From contig NC_043000.1 of NCBI RefSeq assembly GCF_006345805.1, positions 148,056,001-148,120,000 of the forward strand: a DNA stretch of 64,000 nt, in the 5' to 3' direction. Origin of the DNA: Octopus sinensis (lineage: Eukaryota). A program made the translations under genes and the position numbers. The number at the start of each line of letters is the position of its first letter. Position 1 is the stretch's first letter. The notes under the pieces are model-generated. The model saw nothing but the letters and a program-made list of their open reading frames with translations, did not search any database and had not been told where the DNA came from. Positions 1,370 through 39,035 of this stretch are shown piece by piece.

Positions 1370-2531
1370 AAAATCCAGCAAGCTCATTTATGCCAAATGG
1401 CGTGGCTAATACAATTTCTGAATTTACGTGTAACCTGGAGGAGGGTATTATGTTTCTCGTGTATTATAGAAGATACGAGGAAATTTTTAACGAGTGCAAG
1501 TCATGGTTGGAGGAGTAGAAAGAAAGGTTTTTACTTTGCATGGTAGCTCCTGTCGAACATGAGCATTACTGTAACTTTATTTAAAGCAAACAGAAAAGTA
1601 CTTTCACGGCAATTGAAATCGCAAATGAAAAGTTCGACTGACTTGAAAAGAGTGGACTCATAAAAAAGGTGAATTATTCAAAGTGGGTGGCACCCATTGT
1701 ATATGTTAAAAAAACAATCTTTTGATTAGGTTGTGTGCTGATTTCTCTACAGGATTGAATGACTGCTTGAAAACATACTACCATCCACTCTCAACTGCAG
1801 AGGACATTTTTTTCAAAGTTAAATGGTGGGAAAAGTTTTTCCAAATTAGATCTGTATGAAGCCTATTTACAGATAAAAGTAAATGAAAGATTCTTAAAGT
1901 ATTTGGCAATAAATACACACAGAGGATTGCACAGATACACACGATTACCTTTTGGATTAAGAGTTACACCAGCAATATCCCAGCAAATCATCGATACTAT
2001 CTTATCTGATTGTGAATTTGCAATCCTGTTCTTTGACGCTATTTCGATCAAGAGTAATTCTTGTGAACAGCATGTGGAACACACAAAAGCTGTGTTCAAG
2101 AAAATTAAAGATTTTGGGTTCACTTTGGGAGAAGAAAAATGTGAATTCTTTCTACCCCAAATTAAGTACTTAAGGCAAATAATTGATAGAGGTGGTAGAT
2201 GTCCTGACCCATCAAGGGCAGATACAATAACGATTATGCCTTCACCGACAAATATTCCAACTTTACAAGCATTTCTTGGGTTGGCAAACTACTACCAAAA
2301 CTACAGTCCTAATATACACAAGTTAAGAACTCCATGACTTATTAAAAAAGAAAGTAAAGTAGAATTGGTCAGTTAAATGTCAGAACACTTGTAGTGTCTG
2401 ATGCTTCCGAGCACAGATTAGGTGCAGTTCTACTTCATAAACAAGAAGATGGAAGTACAAGACCAGTGGTTCATGTTTCATGCTTGCTAATAACAGCAGA
2501 GAAGAGATATTGTCAAATTGAAAAGGAGGCC
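1370..2531 (+). mobile_element. Ty3/gypsy LTR retrotransposon fragment (gag remnant, RT, RNase H), decayed
   Basis: Motifs WVAPIVYVKK, RLCADFSTGLN, FSKLDL, AINTHRGLHRYTRLPFG, EKCEF, LQAFLGLANYY, SDASEHRLGAVL and EKRYCQIEKEA. There are stops and frameshifts, and the YxDD motif is mutated. Confidence 0.9.
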
Positions 2532-4740
2532 TTCACGGATTTCCTCACCGGTCTATTGTGCCTCTTGGGGAGGGTGGTTAGGTGCTGTGAAGAGCCGATC
2601 ACAGTTGTAGAAGTGGAGGAGGCATTGTTGGAGTGTAGTGGGGCAGGTTGCAATGGTCTCCCCTATGAATTGCATTATACTATACCAGACTTGTTTGGGC
2701 ACCTGCTGGCCTGTGTCTTCAATAACTGGCAGGAGAATGAGAGTATTCTTGCATCTGTGAGCCAGGGAGTGGTGGTACTGATCAGAATGGACCCAAACAA
2801 GTGGAACGTAATTGACAACTTTACGCCTATCACTCTACTTAACACAGAGTTGAAGATTCTGGCCAAGGTTTTAGCAAAAAGGTTGGCAAAATTTGTGGAT
2901 GGTATCATTGGGCAGATACAAACCTATGCCATCCCTGATAGGGCCATACACAATATTCTCCACCTTATACGCTATACCTTAGAAGGGGTAAATAGGATTC
3001 CTGGCAAAGGTGGGGAGTTGGTCCATTTAGACCAATCCAAAGCCTTTGATAGAGCAGACCATCTGTATTTCGTGGTGGTCCTTGAAGCAGCTGGTTTTGG
3101 TCTGACATTCCATGGCTGGATCAATGCTTTAGGTAGCAACATCAAGTCAGTAGTTCAGGTGAATAGTTCTTTTTGGAGCCATTCAATATTGAATGCTCAG
3201 TTTGTCAAGATTGTCCACTCTTGCCCCTGTTGTATGAATTGGCTCTTGAGCCACTACTGCAAAGATTGGAGTCGATGAGTGAAGACCCACAAGATCTAGG
3301 GTATGGGAAGTCAGTCACAGCATATGCATACGATGTCACTCTCATATCCAGGGACCAGGACCTACAGAGTGTAGGTGAGGCCCTAAAGAATTATTAAGCA
3401 GTGGCAGGAACAAGAATTAACCGGGATAAGTTGGTTGGCTTGCAGCTCGGCTCCTGGAGAGGCAAGTCGATGCTCTCCAACAGCATCATCAGACACTGGA
3501 CAGACAGTCCGGTGAAAATGCTTGGAGTCTGATTTGGTCCAGACCTCCAGATAGAGAAGAGTTGGAGTGAGGTTAGGGGCAGGGTGGTGTCTATAACTGA
3601 GACCTGGTCTAGGCGGAGGCTATCTCTGAAAGGGAGGGCAGAGGTGGCAAATGCATTTATTGCATCTGTCATTACCTACCACCTAACCATCTTACCATGC
3701 CCCAATTTATGCTCATTCACTTCTTGTGGAAAGGAAGGCGGCCCCTTGTAAGGCACTCTATCTGCTGCCAACAGCCACTAAAGGGTGGGTTAGGGATGCC
3801 ATGGCTAAAGATGCATAGGCATGTGCTGAGGTTGAAGCAAATCTGGCTCTACCTGGATGGTGAGTGGGTGTGGTATCATTTGTTGATGAAATATTTCCCA
3901 GGTTCACCTCTTTTAGTGAACTGGAATGCTGGATAGCCATAGACCAAGACTGGGAGCTTGGCAAGCAGTGTCAACAGACACTCATTCAGGAGAGAAGCGG
4001 GCTAGTAGAGGGCAAGTGTGATGATGGCCTGGGGGAGACTCTGGGTTTCGATGAAAGTCAGCTTGCCAACCTTCATCGAAGGACTTTTGGCCTGGGACCT
4101 ATGGACAACTTCCAGAGGTACTTGGCTTGGCTGTGCTTCCGAAGTGCCTTGCCAGTTTGGAATAAATTCGCGAGGCATGGCCACATGGGTTCGCCTATAT
4201 GCCCACATTGTGGGCAGAGTAATGAAACTGTTCTGCATGCAATCGTACAGTGTCCAAGTCTCGGACCTGTGGGTTTCTACTGAACGGGTACTGTCACAGC
4301 TAGGGAGAGTACAGCTGTCAGCTGAGTCGATTATTAAGATTGTTCTGCCATCTCCTCTAAAAGGAGAAGAGAAATTCTGCTTTCTAGCCATAATAGCTAT
4401 AGCGAAAGAGGTGAACCTCTTTTTATATCACCTAAGAGGGAAAGCACATCTGGAGAAGAAATGCCTGACAATAAAAATGTACGAAAAATGATGGAAGAAA
4501 GTAGCCTGAATATTGGGTATGTAAGTGCCTAATTAAGCAGAGTAAAAAAAAAAAAAAAGTAAACAGTTCAATGCAGGAATGTAATTGGTGGGGGTTAAAC
4601 CCATACCATTTCCATTCATTCTTTCATCTTCATCTGAAGATGTATTTATTCATATGTGTAATCTCATTTGATAAGCTCCCGACCCCTATTTGTCTCGTGT
4701 ATAGTCCCCTCTTTGTTTAACCCTTGTGGTTTGAATAAAA
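2532..4740 (+). mobile_element. L1/Tx1-clade LINE ORF2 (RT plus C-terminal zinc finger) and 3' UTR, decayed
   Basis: Motifs NFTPITLLNTELKILAKVLAKRL, LDQSKAFDR, AYAYDV (YADD), FLWKGRRP, GGLGMP and CPHCGQSNETVLHAIVQCP. Several frameshifts; AATAAA near 4735. Confidence 0.9.
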
Positions 4741-5244: not shown

Positions 5245-5791
5245 AATTATGTACAGGTGATTGTGGAAAAGTTTGCATATATATATAGTGGTCGCATACT
5301 GTCAACTCAATGTGACAGTCCTGTAAGGGAATTACACCACCACCATTTAGCCTTAGGAAACATCAACGTCTCCTGTCGGCTTTGACACATTTTCTGCCTC
5401 CTTATATTTGCAAAGGGGAGGCAAACACCCCCGCAAGCTGGGAAAAGGCACCTGAAGACATATGTTTCTGAGTGTATTGCTCATCGTCAGTTCAGGGTAG
5501 CTTGCCTCGCTCGCTGAGATGACTGCAACCTCTCTGCAAATATATCATATATTCAGTAAAATTTATTTACTGATCACCGAAATTAGAAATATTGAATTTC
5601 TAAATGTCTCAGAGATGGTGGAGCAAATGTGTCAAAATGTGTCAAAGCTGATAGATGTCGATGTTTCCTAGGGCTAAACAGCGGTGATGTAATTCTCTTA
5701 TGGGACTGTCACATTGAGTTGACAGTATACGACCACTATATATATATATATATATATGTGCAAACTTTTCCACAATCACCTGTACATAATT
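5245..5791. mobile_element. Non-coding element with ~150-bp inverted arms enclosing a hammerhead motif
   Basis: 5245-5392 is the imperfect reverse complement of 5633-5791. The ORF track shows near-identical peptides on opposite strands (5191+ and 5642-). Confidence 0.8.
5451..5496 (-). ncRNA. Type I hammerhead ribozyme motif
   Basis: Minus strand reads CCUGAA CUGACGA UGAG-CAAUACA-CUCA GAAA C-AUAU-G UC UUCAGG: full core, 6-bp stem I, 4-bp stem II, palindromic stem III and a GUC site. Confidence 0.85.
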
Positions 5792-10117: not shown

Positions 10118-11356
10118 TTAAATATACCTGGATTCAACTCCACCAAACCTTAGTCCCAGATTATGCTCCTAACCCTAGCTTATTGATAACCAAGTTATTT
10201 ACTGAATTGTTTGTGATATTTAAAATTAATTGAAAAAAAAAAAAAACAGAGCATCTCAACAGAAATATGTTAACAAAAGGGTTAAATATACCTGGATTCA
10301 ACTCCACCACTGTGAGACGGAGAGAGAGAAGGTGGAAGGAGGACAGGTGAGAGATAATGCTTGTCAACCTGAAAATCACATTTTCAAATCTTTTGTCTGT
10401 ATTTTCATCACCCTTGATGAAACCAAGGTCATATATCCTTCCATACAGCTAGAAATTTATTCTTTACAACGAGGCTAAATACTTTTTTGTCTACTAAATT
10501 CATTGTAAAAATCTGTTTCTTCATTTCCACCCCCTTTCCATCCTCCATTTCAGTTCTGCTACTAAGCTTTGCTTTCAGTTTGCTTCAATTTTTAGAACAG
10601 TGCTTTCCATTCATTTGCCACCAACTTTTGTTCGCCCAGATCCTTCCTATTCATTCACTCTTCATTCATTGATTTTTCTTCTATTGTCTATACGATTTCA
10701 TCTTGTTTGTCTTGCTCTGATATTTATTGTCCTCTTCTTATCTTGTTTTCCTTCGTTTACCCTGGTACCAACCTCCCTCGCATACATGCTATTCTATTTC
10801 ATGTTTGCACACCTATCCTATTTTTTTCTTGTACAGTAATTGCTTTGTTCATTTTAACTATTAAAGTCATATAATTTAGTGTATAACATTATACAAACCT
10901 ATTCACCATAACCTGATAGTACTTTTTTACTTTGTGACACAATAATTTTCTTGTTGTTGTAACTAATTCTACCATACATGCACCTATACTGGGTCAGACA
11001 GACACTTGTTTTGTAATTGTCCAAATAGCCTACTTTCTACTAGTTACCTAAATTTTCATTATTTAGAAATTTGAGTCTCTTAGTATAGCTTATTTTGTAC
11101 TTAAAACATTAGATTTAACAGGAACCGATTAAACTAGTAATTAACTTTCTGTTTAATACAACTTAGAACAGTTTTTAGTGATTTTTCATGTGCTGTATAT
11201 CAGATGATGTAACACAGAGACTAGTGTCGAGGCATTCTGCTGGTGTAGATTAATCCAATCAATACCTGCATAGAGAACTGAAACCTTGAAGTCACTGTCC
11301 ATATTTTTCCTAGAAAAGTTAATGAATATAATATATATATATATATATTATATATA

Positions 11357-11615
11357 TGTGAAGTATATTTGTCACTTAAATGTAGCTAACCACATTCTCC
11401 AGCTGGCTATTGACACACTTTCTGTGCCCTATCAATATTTGCAAAGGGAAGCCATCCTTCCCATCGTCGACATGACGTGATACGCACGGACCCGGGTTTC
11501 TGGGTATTTACCCGTCGTCAGCACACGACAATCACCGGTCTTCGATGTGAAGGGGTCCCAATGCAAATACATATATCCTTTTTCCAGTGACGAAAAGCCA
11601 CTGATCTCGAAAAAG
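11357..11615 (-). mobile_element. Short hammerhead-bearing element between TA/TG microsatellites, related to 5287-5585
   Basis: Shared ordered blocks on +: TTGACACAnTTTCTG, ATATTTGCAAAGGG, hammerhead, TGCAAATA, CAGT..ACTGATC..CGAAA. Confidence 0.7.
11477..11535 (-). ncRNA. Type I hammerhead ribozyme motif
   Basis: Minus strand reads CGUGUG CUGACGA C GGGU-AAAU-ACCC A GAAA C-CCGG-G UC CGUGCG. Stem I has three G-U pairs and extends via GUGAU/AUCAC. Confidence 0.8.
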
Positions 11616-11636
11616 TGTATGTGTGTGTGTGTATAT

Positions 11637-11704
<68 letters not shown>

Positions 11705-12843
11705 GTGTATATGTATGTATGTATATATATATGTATGTATGTATATATATATGTATGTATGTGTGTGTATATGTATGTATGTATATATATATATGTATGT
11801 ATGTATATATATATGTATGTATGTGTGTGTATATATATGTGTGTGTGTATATATATGTGTGTGTGTATATATATGTATATATATATGTATATATATGTAT
11901 GTGTGTATATATGTGTGTGTGTATATATATGTGTGTGTGTATATATATGTATATATGTATATATATGTGGTGTGTGTGTATATATATATATATATGTGTA
12001 TATGTATGTATGTATATATATATGTATGTATGTATATATATATGTATGTATGTGTGTGTATATGTATGTATGTATATATATATGTATGTATGTATATATA
12101 TATGTATGTATGTGTATGTGTATATATATGTGTGTGTGTATATATATGTGTGTGTGTATATATATGTATATATATATGTATATATATGTATGTGTGTGTA
12201 TATATGTGTGTGTGTATATATATGTGTGTGTGTATATATATGTATATATGTATATATATGTGTGTGTGTGTGTGTATATATATGTATATATGTATATATA
12301 TGTATATATGTATATATATATATGTGTATGTATATATGTGTATATATATGTGTGTGTGTGTGTATATATAAATATATGTATGTACATGTATATATGTATG
12401 TATATATATGTGTGTGTATATATGTATGTATATATATGTGTGTGTATATATGTATGTATATATATGTGTGTGTATATATGTATGTATATATGTGTGTATA
12501 TATGTATGTATATATATGTGTGTATATATGTATGTATATATATATGTGTATATATATGTGTATATATATGTGTATATATATGTGTATATGTATGTGTATA
12601 TATATGTGTATATATATGTGTATATGTATGTGTATATGTATGTGTATATATATATGTATGTGTATATATATATGTATGTGTATGTGTGTATATATATGTG
12701 TATATATGTGTATATATATATGTATATGTATGTGTGTATATATATATGTGTGTATATATATATGTATGTATATGTGTGTATATATATATGTATGTATATG
12801 TATGTGTGTATATATATATGTATGTATATGTATGTGTGTATGT
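11616..12843. repeat. Compound (TA)/(TG)/(TATG) microsatellite
   Basis: About 1.2 kb of alternating purine-pyrimidine repeat. Confidence 0.98.
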
Positions 12844-12844
12844 A

Positions 12845-13808
12845 CACTACCGTCAGAAATTAATTAGCACCCTTGATTTGCTCTTCACTCAAGGTATGTG
12901 CTGTCACCTAGTGGCCATATCTCGAACTATTGCTTTGTTGCGAGTTCACTGTTGCGCAGAACGATGACGTAACTTTGTTTGCAGAGCGATTTGAAAGTCT
13001 ACAGCCTAATGATGTTGACATAGCAGTGCAACAACAACTTGGAGTGCGGATGCAGACAAATCTTCCTTTGTTTAATAGATATAGGTAGAGCCTCACAAGG
13101 ACCGAAATCACACCGTACTAAGTTTTCTCATCGCGTAAGACGTTTTGAACAGCTCGTAGGTTAATTGATTTGTGTATTTGCAAGATTTTTTTTCCTCACA
13201 AATTCTCCTACACTCTGCTTCGTGATGTCACTTCCGGTTCACAAAACTTTCTGTTATACATCAAATAAGGTGAGAAATTCTGCTTTCTTTCTTTTTTGTT
13301 TAATGAATAATAACTCATAGCAGTTTTGTTATAGCATAACATTATTCAAATGAATAGTTTTAATGAAAATAACTGGTTTTTATCGTTCATTCCTAGATGG
13401 GCCCAAGACCTCGCATGACCTTGGAGAGACGGTACGAGGCTCTCTCGTGGCGTGGGAAGCTGTCGGAGACTGCAATAGCCAGAAAACTTGGTGTAGCCAG
13501 GCGCACAATTCAGTGCTTATTTAAGAAATACGAGGAAACCGGATCAGCAGCTGACCAAAAGGGTAGGGGACGGAAGAGGCTGACGACCCAGCGGGAGGAC
13601 CGGATGCTGATCCGAAAGTCACTGAACAACCGAAGAGCAACGAGCCGGCAACTGGCGGAGGAGATGCAAAAGGTGACAGGGAAGCAGTTGTCTACAACCA
13701 CCGTCAAGACCAGATTACTGGATGCTGGTCTAAAATCCTGTAGGGCCGCCCATAAATGTAAGAAAATGTAGAAATTTGAGAAGTGCTAATTAATTTCTGA
13801 CGCAAGTG
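12845..13808 (+). mobile_element. Tc1/mariner transposon, internally deleted
   Basis: 26-bp TIRs CACTACCGTCAGAAATTAATTAGCAC / GTGCTAATTAATTTCTGACGCAAGTG (24/26 match), with TA on both sides. Confidence 0.92.
13397..13771 (+). CDS. Truncated Tc1 transposase: paired-type HTH DNA-binding region only, no DDE domain
   Basis: [17 protein letters not shown]...KYEETGS...[14 protein letters not shown]...TSRQLA...[14 protein letters not shown]. Open for 124 aa and ending just before the right TIR. Confidence 0.8.
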
Positions 13809-16228: not shown

Positions 16229-18657
16229 TGGGTGCTCTTTATGTGCAGCAAAGGAATCGTGGGGAGAAATTAGGACTTGAAAAAATGTAAATAGAGTTTG
16301 AGTTACTCAAACTCAGAGCATTAGATAATGAACAAAAATATAAAATGATTAATGAAGAAATGCACACTAAACTCATGAAATATGCTATGAATAACCTTTA
16401 GAAAGCGTTATAAAACTATGGAAAGGCAGCTGTAAATCAGAAGAAATAAATTCCCTGCAACAATGGGAAAACAGTGTTAACTTCGTCCTTAGTTATGAAG
16501 CTCAGTTTAAAAGAGACTACACTTCAGATAGTCCCTTCCTGAAAAAATATACAGAACAAATACATCTATAGAAATAAATACACATCCACCTAGATCAAAC
16601 TATAAACATCCAAAGAACACAAACACACAAAACTGACTTCTCACCTGGAAGTAAACCATTCTCAATCTAGTAATAGGGACAACTCACTAATGAGAAATAC
16701 TAGAAGAAACCAACCTAGGGTTAGGAGTAATTTTTTTCTCTCGAGCAACTAGAAACGTCCAATAGACTCCCTTAACCCCTTAACAAAGAAGCTCAACCTA
16801 TTTACCAAGACAGAGGTAATTGCCTTCCACAAAAAGGTTGGAATAAAACACAATATGACTTCTGTGACCAAATCCAAAATTTCCCATATACTTTCCATAA
16901 ACGAAAAATTAATTTGAACCTCAACAATCTAGAATGGAAAAATCTTATTGAACTACAAAACAACAAAGACCTGACAATTAAAGAAGCAGACAAAGGAAGT
17001 GCTGTAGTCCTGATGGACACAGAATACTATAAAAACCTAGTGCAGGAGTGGCTGTGTGGTAAGTAGCTTGCTAACCAACCACATAGTTCCGGGTTCAGTC
17101 CCACTGCATGGCATCTTGGGCAAGTGTCTTCTGCTATAGCCCCGGGCCGACCAATGCCTTGTGAGTGGATTTGGTAGACGGAAACTGAAAGAAGCCTGTC
17201 GGATATATGTATATATATATATGTATGCGTTTGTGTGTCTGTGTTTGTCCCCATAGCATTGCTTGACAACCGATGTTGGTGTGTTTATGTCCCCGTCACT
17301 TAGCGGTTCGGCAAAAAAGAGACCGATAGAATAAGTACTGGGCTTCCAAAGAATAAGTCCCGGGGTTGATTTGCTCAACTAAAGGTGGTGCTCCAGCATG
17401 GCCGCAGTCAAATGACTGAAACAAGTAAAAGAGAGAGTAAAAGAGAGAAAAGAGAGAGTTATCCATACTAGAAAATGATGCCTTCTACGAAAACGTTGTA
17501 AACTATAAACAACAAAAAACAATGAAAGATCTTGCATCTTTAATTCTTCTACATGGAAAAGACCTGACAGAAAAAGAAACAGACTACATCACGAACTTCA
17601 AATGTAAACCTAGTCTTTTTTATGGCCTACCTAAAATACACAAGGGCAAGATAATTAATGAAGCCTACAAACAATCATCAGGCAAATACATAAATATCCA
17701 AGCGACAGAAGACTTAACTTTAAGGCACATTATAGCTGGCCCAGCCTGTGAAACCCACTGCCTATGCAATTCTTTAGACATCCTACTGAAATCCTTGCTG
17801 AAATGCATCAAAAGTTTCATTAGAGATGATTTAGACATGCTAGAGCACCTACCAAAAACAATTAATGAATAGGCATTATTGGTGTCCTTTGATGTTATCA
17901 ATCTTTATACCAACATCCCACATGACAATGGAATAAAAACAATCAAATTCTGATTGGAAAAGTACCCCAAAGTACTCCTTGAATTCATAAATCAGATCTT
18001 TATTATTGAATCTTTAAAATTTATACTTCAGAACAATTATTTCCTATTTGATGACACATACTATTGTCAAAAATGCAGAGTTGCAATGGGAACAAAAGCA
18101 GCCCCTGTTCTTGCAAACTTGATTATGGGTTATTTTGAATTCACTATATATGAAATGTCACTTCAAAAATATGGTTATCCATTTCACCATTACATAAGAG
18201 AAAGCTGGGAAAGATGCCTGGATGACTGTTTTATCATTTTGAAGAAGACCATAACTTTTGGACTTCAAATCAACACTAAATGATATAAATAGTAACATTC
18301 AATTCACAATGGAATATAACAAAGAACAGCTCCCATTTTTGGATATCATGATAAAAAAAAGTCAACAACCAAATTATAACTGGCATCTATCCTAAACCAA
18401 CGGACTCGAAACAATATCTGTTTAACTCATGCCACCCGAAACACATTAAAACAAATATCCCCTTTAATTTGGCAAAAAGGATTTACACAATAGTGTCTGA
18501 TAGAACTACTCGGGATCTTTGTCTTCAAGATGTCAAAACAACACTAACTGAAAGGCAATATCCACCCTCACTTATAGCCGATGGAATTAAGTATGCCAAG
18601 AATTTAGACATAAAAACACTAAGGGCAACAATGCATAACACCATACCTCATCTTTGA
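16229..18657 (+). mobile_element. Penelope-like element, RT region, decayed and interrupted by a SINE
   Basis: Motifs TIKEADKGSAVV, FYGLPKIHK, SFIRD, LVSFDVINLYTNIPH, AMGTKAAPVLANL, CLDDCF, IQFTME, LPFLD, KPTDSKQY and SCHPKH. No GIY-YIG domain seen. Confidence 0.92.
17040..17458 (+). mobile_element. SINE family A (tRNA-headed, CORE-like)
   Basis: A box TGGCTGTGTGG, B box GGTTCAGTCCC, CORE-like CTTGGGCAAGT, internal TA/TG tract and (GTAAAAGA)n tail. Confidence 0.9.
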
Positions 18658-22091: not shown

Positions 22092-22305
22092 GACCGCGTG
22101 TGCTCCGTTGGCGATTTTTTTTTTTTTTTTCCCTCCGTCTTCCCTTCTCTGGATCTTTCCTTTTCATATGTTTCTGACGAAGAGCTCCGCTCGAAACATT
22201 AAACCCTCCTTCTTCCCTTCCTTCCTGAGCGTCCAATAATACTATATTTGTTCCACGCCTTCGCGTTGTTGTGTTTTCTCTTTGTTTTCACGTTCGGATT
22301 AACTA
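22092..22305 (+). mobile_element. Penelope-type terminal repeat fragment with minimal hammerhead motif (22170-22204)
   Basis: GTTT CTGACGA A GAGC-TCC-GCTC GAAA CA TT AAAC. Second copy at 28668-28865; both end in (TA)n. Confidence 0.7.
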
Positions 22306-22323
22306 TATATATATATATATATA

Positions 22324-22550
22324 GGCGGCGAGCTGGCAGAAACGTTAGCACACCGGGCGAAATGTGTAGCCGTATTTCGTCTGCCGTTACGTTCTGAGTT
22401 CAAATTCCGCCGAGGTCGACTTTGCCTTTCATCCTTTCGGGGTCGATAAATTAAGTACCAGTTACGCACTGGGGTCGATGGAATCGACTTAATCCCTTTG
22501 TCTGTCCTTGTTTGTCCTCTATGTTTAGCCCCTTGTGGGTAGTAAAGAAA
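22324..22550 (+). mobile_element. tRNA-headed SINE with Meta-like central domain
   Basis: GGCGGCGAGCTGGCAGAA head, GAGTTCAAATTCC B box, and GACTTTGCCTTTCATCCTTTCGGGGTCGATAAATTAAGTACCAG. Confidence 0.8.
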
Positions 22551-22924
22551 TATATATTTGTTCCACGCCCTCGCGTTGTTGTGTTTTCTCTTTGTGTTTT
22601 CATGTTTGGATTAACTTTATATATATATATATATCTATATATATCCGTGCCTGTCTGTGTGTGGTTAGAAAATGTGCCACTACAAATTCTGTCCAACCCA
22701 TTAAGGTATGGGAGAGTGAATGATAAAATGATGATGATGTTGATGATTCTCCTGTCTTTTTTTTTCTTTCTTTTTGTAAAAGCATATTTTCTTTTGAACT
22801 TTTTTTTCTATTTAAAAAGTTGTGTGCTTTGTTTTTCAGGGGTCTGAAACATTTCACCCACTGTCACAAGTATTTACATATTTCACTGGACCATTTTTAA
22901 AAATTTTTTTATAATTTCCTTATA

Positions 22925-36219: not shown

Positions 36220-38785
36220 CATCATCATCATCATCATCATCGTTTAACGTCCGCTTTCCATGCTAGCATGGGTTGGACGGTTCAACTGGGGTCTGGCAAG
36301 CCCGAAGGCTGCACCAGGCCAGTCAGATCTGGCAGTGTTTCTACAGCTGGATGCCCTTCCTAACGCCAACCACTCCAAGAGTGTAGTGGGTGATTTTATG
36401 TGCCACCGACACAGGTGCCAGACGAGGCTGGCAGACGGCCACGCTCGGATGGTGTTTTTTATGTGCCACCGACACAGGTGCCAGACGAGGCTGGCTGACG
36501 GCCACGCTCGGATGGTGTTTTCTTATGTGTCACCGACACAGGTGCCAGACGAGGCTGGCGGACGGCCACGCTCGGATGGTGTTTGTTACGTGCCCTCAGC
36601 ATGGAGGCCAGTCGTTGCGGTACTGGCTACGGTCACATTCGGGTGGGTTTTCTTATGTGCCACAAGGGTACAAATTCCATTGATGTACATCTATTTTGAT
36701 TTGGTTCGATTTGATTTGATTCGGTTCTCACTTGCCTCAACAGGTCTTCAACAAGTGTCACAAGAAGGAAGGTATGCACAGGTGGACTGACTACGTCCCA
36801 GGTAGGGGCCACGGATTATGGTTTCACTAGTCTTGCCGGGTCTTCTCACGCACAGCATACTTCCATAGGTCTCGGTCTCTAGTCATTTCCATGGTGAGAC
36901 CTAACGTCCGAAGGTCGTGCTTCACCACCTCGTCCCAGGTTTTCCTGGGTCTACCTCTTCCACGGGTTCCCTCAACTGCTAGGGATTGGCACTTTCTCAC
37001 ACACCTATCTTCATCCATTCTCGCCACATGACCATACCAGCGCAATCGTCTCTCTTGCACACCACAACTGATGCTTCTTAGGTACAACATTTCTCTCAAG
37101 GTACTAACGCTCTGTCGAGTAAGTACACTGACATTACACATCCATCGGAGCATACTGGCTTCGTTCCTCGCGAGCTTACGCATGTCCTCAGCAGTCACGG
37201 CCCATGTTTCACTGCCATGTAGCATAGCTGTTCGTACACATGCATCATACAGTCTGCCTTTTACTCTGAGCGAGAGGCCTTTAGTCACCAGCAGAGGTAA
37301 GAGCTCCCTAAACTTTGCCCAGGCTATTCTTATTCTAGCAGTTACACTTTCAGCACACCCACCCCCACTACTGACTTGGTCACCTAGATAGCGGAAGCTA
37401 TCAACTACTTCTAGTTTTTCCCCCCGGAAAGTGACGGAAGTTGTTTTCTGCAGATTTTCGGAGGTCAATGCTCCAGAGCATCTGCCACATACAAAAACTA
37501 TCTTCCCAGTTAGCCTACCTTTGACATTGCTGCACCTCTTATGTGTCCATAGCTTACACTGGGTACATCTTATAGAGTTTCTACCCACACCCTTTCTACA
37601 GATCGAGCAGGGCCATCTTCCTGAGGATATTTGTGGATTGTCTACCTTTCTACTTATTAGTACTTTGGTTTTAGCTAGGTTGACTCTAAGGCCCCTCGAT
37701 TCTAAACCCTCCTTCCACACCTGGAACTTCTCCTCCAGTTCTGATAGTGACTCAGCAATTAGAGCGAGGTCGTCAGCATAGAGGAGCTCCCAGGGGCAAC
37801 CTGTCTTGAATTCCTCCACAATTGCCTGGAGGACTATGATAAATAGGAGGGGGCTGAGTACTGAACCCTGGTGGACCCCAACCTCTACTTTGAATTCTTC
37901 TGTGTACATGTTGCCAACTCTAACCTACTTACGGCATCTCTGTACATGGCTTGCACAGCCCTCACCAGCCATTCATCTATCCCTAGTTTCCTCATTGACC
38001 ACCAGATGAGGGATCGGGGGACCCTATCAAAAGCTTTCTCCATGTCAACGAAAGCCAGGTACAGGGGCTTATCTTTGGCTAGGTATTTCTCCTGCAGCTG
38101 CCTTACCAGGAATATAGCATCAGTGGTGCTTTTCCCTGGGACAAACCCAAACTGCATCTCATCTAAACTAACTCTCTCTCTAATTAGTTGGGCTATGACC
38201 CTTTCCGTAACCTTCATTACCTGATCCAACAGCTTGATACCTCTGTAATTATTTGTATCTAGGGCATCACCTTTACCTTTGTAGCAGTTGACTAGTATGC
38301 TGCTACACCAGTCATTGGGTATGACTCCTTCGTGTATCACCTGGTTGACTATACGGGTGACTAGGTTATAGCCGACACTGCCAGATATTTTGAGCATCTC
38401 TGCAGTAATTCCTGATGGGCCTGGGGCTTTCCCTGTCTTCATGCTTCTAATTGCCTTAGCTACCACGGAACTATCAACTCGGATAGCTGGTCCCTCTGTT
38501 GGGTCAACATTCGGCAGACTCTCTTTATCCCACTCATTTTCTTTATTCAGCAACCTTTCATAGTGGCATCTCCAAACCTCTCTCTTTGCATCCTCATTTA
38601 GCGCAAGTGAACCATCATCCATGCGAACACACTTCTCTCCTACCACGTCACGATTCTCTCTCACACATTGTCTTGCAACACGAAATACCTCAAGTCTTTC
38701 ATCCTCACGGCTCAGAACATTGGCAAATTTTTTCTTATCCGCTTCCCCTCTGGCTAAATATACCTGTCTCCTAGCTTCCCTTTTG
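36220..38785 (-). mobile_element. RTE-clade LINE, 5'-truncated and relatively young
   Basis: RT ORF remains nearly intact, followed by a 3' UTR with ~52-bp repeats and a (GAT)n tail. Confidence 0.95.
36827..38785 (-). pseudogene. RTE reverse transcriptase (frameshift near 37920; endonuclease domain missing)
   Basis: KAPGPSG, NYRGIKLL, QFGFVPGKSTTDAIF, FVDMEKAFDRVP, GVHQGSVLSPLLF, LLYADD, FRYLG, HGSETW, RLRWYGHV and GRPRKTW. Confidence 0.95.
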
Positions 38786-39035
38786 GCCAGTGTATATTAT
38801 TTAGCTATGTGGTAAATTAAAAATATGAGTATATGATTTGATTTATATTATTTTCGTTCGGAAGTATAAAAGCTAATTCTAAAGGTGTTTTACTGTATTT
38901 TTAGAATATTGATTAGTGAGGTGAGCATAACTTTTTAGTAAATATATGATCTGAAGTAATATATTTATAGGGTATAGAGTAAAAGAAAACTTAGAAATTT
39001 GAATAAATTTGGGTCTTTTTGAAGACATTTTATTA

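What the first reader, a model, noticed from the sequence alone, without database searches (positions are those of the whole stretch)
11357..11615. Second, divergent member defines a microsatellite-associated hammerhead element family
Seen: same block order and orientation as 5287-5585 and also abutting (TA)n, yet every hammerhead helix differs while pairing is kept. Stem I is CGUGUG/CGUGCG versus CCUGAA/UUCAGG, stem II GGGU/ACCC versus UGAG/CUCA, and the stem III palindrome ACCCGGGU versus ACAUAUGU. The core CUGACGA, the A before GAAA, the GUC site, the closing UAUUUGCA/UGCAAAUA helix and a CAGT..ACTG hairpin are shared. Inference: structure has been selected across subfamilies of a ~260-300 nt non-coding, self-cleaving, TA-targeting retroelement (retrozyme- or pLTR-like). 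This is my best candidate for an undescribed system here.
Basis: partly seen in the sequence, partly recalled or inferred. Interest (0 to 1): 0.8.

Follow-up and report, generated by a model that had tools for sequence, protein, structure and literature searches.

The report
Penelope-driven hammerhead mini-retroelement (retrozyme)
This is a damaged copy of a 357-base, protein-free repeat with a hammerhead ribozyme motif, found at over a thousand places in this genome, whose insertion ends match those of Penelope retrotransposons, so it is likely copied by a borrowed Penelope enzyme, likely from a circular RNA.

Summary
Observation confirmed. Window 11357-11616 (minus) is a 5'-truncated, internally deleted copy of a 357-nt repeat unit with a type I hammerhead (family B). 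5287-5617 is its 354-nt sister family A, about 41% diverged. The shared core occurs 1130 times genome-wide against 3 in the control. Units close head-to-tail; dimers and a trimer exist; no copy runs into an ORF. This fits the known non-LTR retrozymes (mussel units 350-390 bp), so the system is not undescribed.

New here is a footprint of the mobiliser. 3' ends fall in two zones about 50 nt apart (94 of 97). Head-to-head insertions carry one end of each kind (55 of 58), the Penelope 'one-sided tail'. A young Neptune-like Penelope family in this genome does the same (4 of 4). Insertions favour microsatellites, and some have 10-15-bp target duplications. Copies read through the cleavage site, so the template is a circle or an uncut multimer. 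Cleavage, circles and the partner family were not shown. The scan earlier noted Penelope-stump palindromes in a shark genome, not this family.

The parts
11357..11616 (-). Family B retrozyme copy: unit positions ~1-303 of a 357-nt unit, 5'-truncated, ~43-nt internal deletion, ends at the first 3' zone; one hammerhead only, so likely a dead-end copy
11585..11603 (-). CAGU..ACUG hairpin, kept in A and B with double changes
   Evidence: helix 1
11562..11569 (-). 5' arm (UAUUUGCA) of the helix closing the long hammerhead stem
11483..11527 (-). Type I hammerhead motif: stem I, CUGACGA (11521-11515), C.A then GGGU/ACCC stem II, GAAA, palindromic CCCGGG, predicted cleavage after GUC at 11489
11436..11443 (-). 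3' arm (UGCAAAUA) of the closing helix
11357..11385 (-). Small hairpin and first 3'-end zone (unit ~291-306), the inferred first reverse-transcription start site
   Evidence: helix 8
11326..11357 (.). (TA)n at the 3' end, the likely target
11617..12841 (.). (TA/TG)n microsatellite on the 5' side
5287..5617 (-). Family A copy (354-nt unit, unit 325 through the junction to 303); hammerhead core starts at 5490, palindrome CAUAUG
5634..5741 (+). Inverted 5'-truncated arm of the family A copy (unit 193-303), head-to-head with the main arm

Best explanation
The stretch is a truncated copy of a 357-nt, protein-free repeat with a hammerhead motif (a non-LTR retrozyme) that is likely copied into new sites by the RT-GIY-YIG protein of a Neptune-type Penelope element, likely using a circular RNA that would be made by self-cleavage. 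Shown: unit size, head-to-tail closure, copy number, ragged 5' ends, two fixed 3' zones, one-tailed head-to-head insertions, microsatellite bias and target duplications. Inferred cycle: the rare loci with two or more hammerheads are transcribed. The ribozymes cut, likely as dimers through the palindromic stem III, and the monomer is ligated into a circle. The Penelope protein binds a conserved structured domain 120-220 nt past the cleavage site, nicks AT-rich or (TA)n DNA on both strands, and starts cDNA at two internal sites about 50 nt apart, aided by short AT/CA matches to the target. One strand starts at each site, which gives head-to-head arms with the tail on one side. Most cDNAs stop short of one unit; a few roll past one or two units and become new source loci. 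My odds: Penelope-type mobilisation about 0.9; a circular rather than uncut linear template about 0.65.
For: Unit closure: periods 357 and 354. Of 86 loci reaching the unit start, 73 by pattern and 5 more by eye are preceded by the unit's own 3' part, and none by an ORF. Two hammerheads 344-364 nt apart: 32 matches vs 1 control; a trimer in L132. 3' ends in two zones: B 61 of 64, A 33 of 33. In a sample anchored only on a 3' 26-mer: 43 at zone 1, 46 at zone 2, 6 running on, of 95. Head-to-head insertions: 55 of 58 with both ends in a zone pair zone 1 with zone 2 (P about 1e-13 against 0.5). Control: a ~100%-identical autonomous RT-GIY-YIG family has two 3' ends ~36 nt apart and the tail on one side in 4 of 4 pairs with both ends in view. 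The one-sided tail is a Penelope hallmark, and in vitro it equals the stretch between two internal RT start sites (PMC11167929). Microsatellite within 20 nt of the 3' end: 47 of 97 vs 293 of 4462 control windows. Target duplications of 10-15 bp: 8 of 97 vs 68 of 9312 mismatched pairs. 46 of 95 copies read through the cleavage site and only 5 end within 15 nt of it, which excludes a cut linear monomer as the main template. Structure: 92% of cells paired, 17 of 41 pairs with double changes, 0 of 500 shuffles as high; the helix enclosing start zone 1 has 5 of 8 pairs doubly changed between A and B. Stem III stays self-complementary in four sequence forms (CCCGGG, CUCGAG, CUGCAG, CAUAUG). 11 natural monomers folded as circles give z from -1.4 to -7.2. 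Unbroken 775-781-aa RT + GIY-YIG frames are present. One direct Penelope-to-retrozyme junction (L093).
Against: No cleavage assay and no RNA evidence of circles; only contigs from runs guessed to be RNA were available. In the anole Penelope system, ribozyme mutants did not affect insertion and uncut RNA was the main substrate, so circles are not required. The base of stem II is C.A instead of the usual G-C, and stem III is short, so activity may be low; 8 of 9 Xenopus retrozyme dimers did not cleave in vitro. No pLTR sequence shared with A or B was found in 80 Penelope loci, so the partner is unnamed. Repeated segments within an insertion are closer than between loci (B direct: 7.8% vs 14.1%), but subfamily structure and later local duplication explain this equally well, and the effect is weak in A (5.5% vs 6.9%). 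12 of the 70 head-to-head loci had an end outside both zones. The covariation rests on few independent lineages. The L093 junction is one case and could be a deletion.
Confidence: 0.6

Rival explanations
1. Same non-autonomous Penelope-dependent element, but the template is an uncut linear transcript of a tandem locus. The hammerhead is carried along or acts at another step, and multi-unit loci are renewed by template jumping, insertion into its own copies or DNA-level duplication.
For: In vitro the anole Penelope protein used unprocessed RNA, and ribozyme mutants did not change insertion. Read-through of the cleavage site (46 of 95) fits this equally. L081 and L082 have near-identical halves that share decayed positions, as local duplication would give. 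The autonomous family makes partial tandems too.
Against: Copies end at the internal start sites, so a linear template loses sequence each round and needs constant regeneration. Only dimers and a trimer, no long arrays, turned up. The catalytic core and the stem III palindrome are kept across 41% divergence. Published retrozymes of the same size accumulate mostly as circles.
Confidence: 0.28
2. The copies are solo pseudo-LTRs: 5'-truncated ends of an autonomous Penelope family not sampled here.
For: All insertion signatures are those of Penelope elements. Xenopus retrozymes resemble Penelope pLTRs. Only 80 Penelope loci out of thousands of candidates were checked.
Against: Upstream of the unit start lies the unit's own 3' part, not an ORF end (78 of 86 loci; the other 8 are truncated or inverted there). 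Dimers and a trimer contain only the unit. Penelope protein fragments in 8 of 222 retrozyme loci are separated, opposite or downstream, except the one junction L093. Sampled autonomous 3' ends carry different hammerhead-like variants.
Confidence: 0.07
3. A SINE mobilised by a LINE, or a DNA-level repeat (MITE, Helitron or satellite), with an incidental hammerhead.
For: Ragged 5' ends, target duplications and 5' inversions also occur with LINE machinery (recalled). LINE-type RT fragments are in the window.
Against: No poly(A) or simple-repeat tail belongs to the element. The 3' ends are two internal sites of a closed unit, paired one-and-one in 55 of 58 inverted insertions. There are no fixed terminal inverted repeats, and copies are dispersed over all large contigs.
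Confidence: 0.05

Closest known systems
Metazoan non-LTR retrozymes (Cervera and de la Pena 2020, PMC7229834; mussel Mytilus 350-390-bp units, axolotl Rtz_331/353)
   Same: Protein-free unit of 354-357 nt, 41-45% GC, type I hammerhead with weak palindromic helix III, head-to-tail dimers and trimer, over a thousand copies, self-paired predicted circle, co-existence with Penelope elements.
   Different: Mostly dispersed sub-unit to 1.5-unit insertions rather than arrays; C.A at the base of stem II; circles not tested; here the insertion ends point to the mobiliser, which the 2020 review (PMC7761336) said could not be deduced from sequence motifs.
Penelope-like elements, Neptune clade, and their pLTR/tail structure (Craig et al. 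2021; Arkhipova et al. 2013, PMC3846280; Frangieh et al. 2024, PMC11167929)
   Same: 5' truncation, partial tandems, inverted 5' arm, tail on one end only, target duplications of similar length, (TA)n bias, hammerhead upstream of two internal start sites.
   Different: No ORF; tail ~50 nt rather than 30-40; start sites 170-220 nt after the cleavage site (about 55-90 nt in the young autonomous family here); start sites show short matches to the target, unlike the anole Poseidon in vitro; no sequence match to sampled pLTRs.
Vertebrate non-LTR retrozymes as Penelope derivatives (bioRxiv 10.64898/2026.07.22.740005)
   Same: Proposes the same non-autonomous, Penelope-hijacking model; monomers dispersed, multimers rare.
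   Different: That work rests on co-occurrence and pLTR similarity, mainly in vertebrates; in the parts I read it does not analyse insertion ends. Here the link is the integration footprint, without pLTR similarity.

Membership tests
Non-LTR retrozyme | Type I hammerhead core with helices I-III in each unit | tested here: met
   stem II base is C.A and Rfam models do not match
Non-LTR retrozyme | Unit of 150-450 bp, GC below about 45-50%, no protein-coding region, no LTR-flanked unique core | tested here: met
   357 and 354 nt, GC 0.41-0.45; multimers contain only the unit
Non-LTR retrozyme | Head-to-tail tandem copies with at least two hammerheads | tested here: met
   32 matches vs 1 control (2 of the 30 loci fetched were unrelated); trimer L132. 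The window copy itself is a sub-unit monomer.
Non-LTR retrozyme | Self-cleavage in vitro | not testable with these tools
   no assay possible
Non-LTR retrozyme | Expression as unit-length linear and circular RNA | tested here: inconclusive
   no run on record as RNA; contigs cannot show ends, strand or circles
Autonomous Penelope-like element | RT + GIY-YIG ORF within the element | tested here: not met
   no copy runs into an ORF
Penelope-type insertion | 5' truncation, partial tandems and inverted 5' arm | tested here: met
Penelope-type insertion | Optional tail present on one end only (two internal start sites) | tested here: met
   55 of 58; autonomous control 4 of 4; tail ~50 nt, longer than the 30-40 nt in print
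Penelope-type insertion | Short variable target-site duplication and (TA)n bias (Neptune/Naiad) | tested here: met
   8 of 97 with 10-15 bp; (TA)4 within 20 nt in 36 of 97 vs 134 of 4462
Solo pLTR of a Penelope family | Sequence identity with the pLTR of an ORF-bearing element | tested here: inconclusive
   none in 80 sampled Penelope loci; the genome was not searched exhaustively

The most novel reading that the evidence does not exclude
A 357-nt self-cleaving RNA circle acts as a 'SINE of Penelope'. A helix-bounded domain conserved between families A and B docks the Neptune-type protein and sets two internal priming sites, while the palindromic stem III pairs two RNAs, so that a dimeric enzyme copies one template from each site onto opposite target strands. 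This would explain the one-tailed head-to-head insertion in one step and give a minimal natural substrate for Penelope transposition.
Probability: 0.25. Interest if true: 0.72.

Novelty: new member of a known kind. Interest (0 to 1): 0.46.

Why it matters
Which enzyme moves animal retrozymes, and whether their circles are the real transposition template, are open questions. The 2020 papers only suggest Penelope elements, and a 2026 preprint argues from co-occurrence and pLTR likeness. This family shows the Penelope integration signature directly and countably, with an autonomous family of the same genome as control and unbroken candidate proteins at hand. The two start sites and a conserved RNA domain are mapped to within a few bases, so the existing in vitro Penelope assay can test circle against linear template and define the cis signal. 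The element class itself is known.

Tried and rejected
Rfam: no hammerhead family matched the window or three multimer loci; the hits were microsatellite artefacts. RNA: no RNA holder listed; 4 contig sets (3 guessed RNA) laid on a dimer cover 29 of 30 bins, but contigs cannot show ends, level or circularity, and uneven depth may only reflect subfamily divergence, so this was not used as evidence. Within-insertion versus between-locus divergence cannot separate circle from tandem template. An older related hammerhead group (CACAUG/CACGUG-type, L121-L131) had no Penelope ORF nearby, and its two cores 1.9 kb apart are a local duplication. B copies next to Penelope ORFs in L279, L269, L092 and L068 are separate insertions, in most cases with microsatellite between. 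The Penelope fragment at window 16782-18630 is 5 kb away on the other strand and not linked. No shared sequence was seen between retrozyme and autonomous tails. An octamer-like ATTTGCAT (motif recalled from snRNA promoters) is present in one B subfamily only and is part of a helix; rejected as a promoter sign. No covariance model was built: no other eukaryote genome could be searched. The organism was not determined. Literature searches found no description of a cephalopod retrozyme or of tail analysis in retrozymes. Repbase and Dfam were not searchable, and the supplement of PMC7229834, the bioRxiv supplements and the repeat library of PMC13282606 were not read; the family may be listed there.

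Full report
Observation. On the minus strand, window 11357-11616 holds a type I hammerhead: CGUGUG CUGACGA C GGGU AAAU ACCC A GAAA CCCGGG UC CGUGCG, with the core at 11521 and predicted cleavage after 11489. The copy at 5287-5585 has the same layout with its core also 95 nt in. BLAST links the two only through a 59-nt, 76%-identical block. Rfam has no hammerhead match here.

Copy number and families. Own-genome searches gave 2855 (B) and 1890 (A) first-look candidates, 40 scored each, mostly 91-96% identical; these are not copy counts. The generic core pattern matched 1130 times against 3, and a 3' 26-mer of B matched 529 times against 0. A and B differ by about 41% around the ribozyme, and B subfamilies by 17-26%. 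An intact core was found by pattern in 27 of 30 B and 25 of 30 A copies. Stem III was a perfect palindrome in 74 of 142 cores, in four main forms, and 23 more are one CpG step away. On 19 natural copies, my 41-pair structure had 92% of cells paired and 17 pairs with double changes, above all 500 shuffles and all slid controls; the sequences are related, so this is not a probability. Five coded organism labels hold parts of a B dimer locus.

The unit is closed. Sequence after a copy's 3' end repeats the sequence before its 5' end, with periods 357 (B) and 354 (A). Of 86 loci reaching the unit start, 73 by pattern and 5 more by eye are preceded by the unit's own 3' part; the other 8 are truncated or inverted there (L001-L060 were selected for covering the start). 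Two hammerheads one unit apart matched 32 times against 1 (2 of the 30 fetched were unrelated), and L132 is a trimer. The window's B copy lacks about 43 internal bases and stops at unit 303. With one ribozyme it could not release a unit-length RNA by itself.

Insertion ends. After dropping 7 duplicate loci and copies under 79% identity, 3' ends fell in two zones, unit ~291-306 and ~343-357: 61 of 64 for B and 33 of 33 for A. The cleavage site is at 128-129. An independent sample anchored on the 3' 26-mer (95 anchors in 90 loci, inverted arms included) split 43 zone 1, 46 zone 2 and 6 running on. 46 of 95 crossed the cleavage site, 5 ended within 15 nt of it, and 4 exceeded one unit; extensions are lower bounds. 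A microsatellite followed the 3' end in 47 of 97 (control 293 of 4462). 11 of 97 had a duplication-like match, 3 of them internal to the element, leaving 8 of 10-15 bp (control 68 of 9312). Among 222 loci, 70 held head-to-head arms. In 58 both outer ends lay in a zone, and 55 of these paired zone 1 with zone 2; 2 were 2+2 and 1 was 1+1, the window's A copy (P about 1e-13).

This is the Penelope signature. Craig et al. describe 5' truncation, partial tandems, an inverted 5' copy, a 30-40-bp tail usually on one end only, and (TA)n bias (passages); Arkhipova et al. 2013 show the same with 8-10-bp duplications (passages). Frangieh et al. 2024 found that the purified protein nicks both strands of AT-rich DNA, starts cDNA at two internal sites downstream of the hammerhead, and that the tail is the stretch between them; they also found ribozyme cleavage dispensable in vitro (first two of four parts read). 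G000 holds such elements: 147 GIY-YIG matches of 150 scored, 5029 candidates, several in unbroken 775-781-aa RT + GIY-YIG frames with the CX4CxxC linker. I call them Neptune-like from that linker; no tree was built. A ~100%-identical family has two 3' ends about 36 nt apart, both followed by (TA)n, with the tail running on into the next copy in tandems and present on one side in 4 of 4 head-to-head pairs with both ends in view. The retrozyme has this topology without the ORF. Zone 1 lies in a predicted single-stranded AU/AC-rich stretch inside an 8-bp helix with 5 double changes between A and B, a candidate protein-binding domain (inference).

Partner. No pLTR in 80 Penelope loci resembles A or B; the matches were separate B insertions. 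Penelope protein fragments occurred in 8 of 222 retrozyme loci. In L093 a Penelope 3' UTR is cut within its own hammerhead-like motif and joined directly to B at unit 37, and the rest of that Penelope end is absent from 9 kb. This is a possible template-switch chimera, one case only.

Circle or not. A cut linear monomer is excluded as the main template. A circle and an uncut multimer both fit. For the circle: copies end at the start sites, so linear templates would shrink each round; no long arrays were seen; the core and palindrome are conserved; 11 natural monomers fold as stable circles (z -1.4 to -7.2); and mussel retrozymes of this size are mostly circular. Against: the in vitro result above, weak stem II and III, 8 of 9 Xenopus dimers inactive, and no usable RNA data. 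The within-insertion test is confounded.

Known kind. PMC7229834 (passages, sections 14 and 17) defines non-LTR retrozymes and names Penelope elements as likely mobilisers. PMC7761336 (passages) notes that no motif reveals the partner. The 2026 preprint (three of five parts) links them to pLTRs. PMC4209133 (part 2 and two supplement files) describes palindromic, dimer-dependent hammerheads and proposes circles. PMC6962438 counts 235 hammerhead-1 matches in giant squid (passage). PMC13282606 does not mention ribozymes in its main text (passages). PMC10886601 and PMC5680766 were seen as passages only. Eight searches found no account of this family; repeat databases and several supplements were not seen.

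Verdict. A real, structured, high-copy element; a new member of the non-LTR retrozymes. Its value lies in the countable Penelope footprint and the mapped start sites. Interest 0.46.

Noticed in passing
window 22095-22305 (+): A third, unrelated ~220-nt repeat with a minimal hammerhead (core at 22174, G-C-closed stem II, AACGTT-type palindrome), a fixed 3' end followed by (TA)n in all 20 loci viewed; 2600 first-look candidates; no shared upstream ORF. A second partial copy lies at 22549-22616.
   Followed up: partly
window 5247-5290 and 5738-5790: About 40 nt of flanking DNA is duplicated in inverted orientation on both sides of the family A insertion, the only zone 1 + zone 1 case; suggests the inverted arm was copied from DNA including target sequence.
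   Followed up: no
window 16782-18630 (+): Broken Neptune-like Penelope RT fragment, about 56% identical to the 781-aa family; not linked to the retrozyme.
   Followed up: partly
L293-L327 (for example G000:C2:59244000-59253999): A very young Penelope family (99-100% identity, 1904 candidates) with a hammerhead-like motif whose core reads UUGAAAA instead of CUGANGA and a CCGG palindrome; other autonomous families show similar changed cores near their 3' ends.
   Followed up: partly
L093 (G000:C1:9221326-9224358): Direct junction of a Penelope 3' UTR to a B copy with no microsatellite between; candidate template-switch chimera.
   Followed up: partly
L101, L120-L131: An older, more decayed hammerhead group with the same C.A/AGAAAC core and CACAUG/CACGUG-type palindrome, 70-80% alike, with inverted arms in L125 and L127; probably a third retrozyme family.
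   Followed up: partly
window 1771-4280, 36830-38796, 13397-13768: Other mobile-element fragments: RT and RNase H-like pieces, an RT with a PHD-like finger, and a Tc3-type transposase; no host gene family was found among 78 of 162 complex ORFs scanned.
   Followed up: no
3'-anchored sample L133-L222: 5' ends cluster 43-82 nt after the cleavage site (about a third of 95), near a conserved hairpin; it may be an RT stall or inversion point, or an alignment artefact.
   Followed up: no
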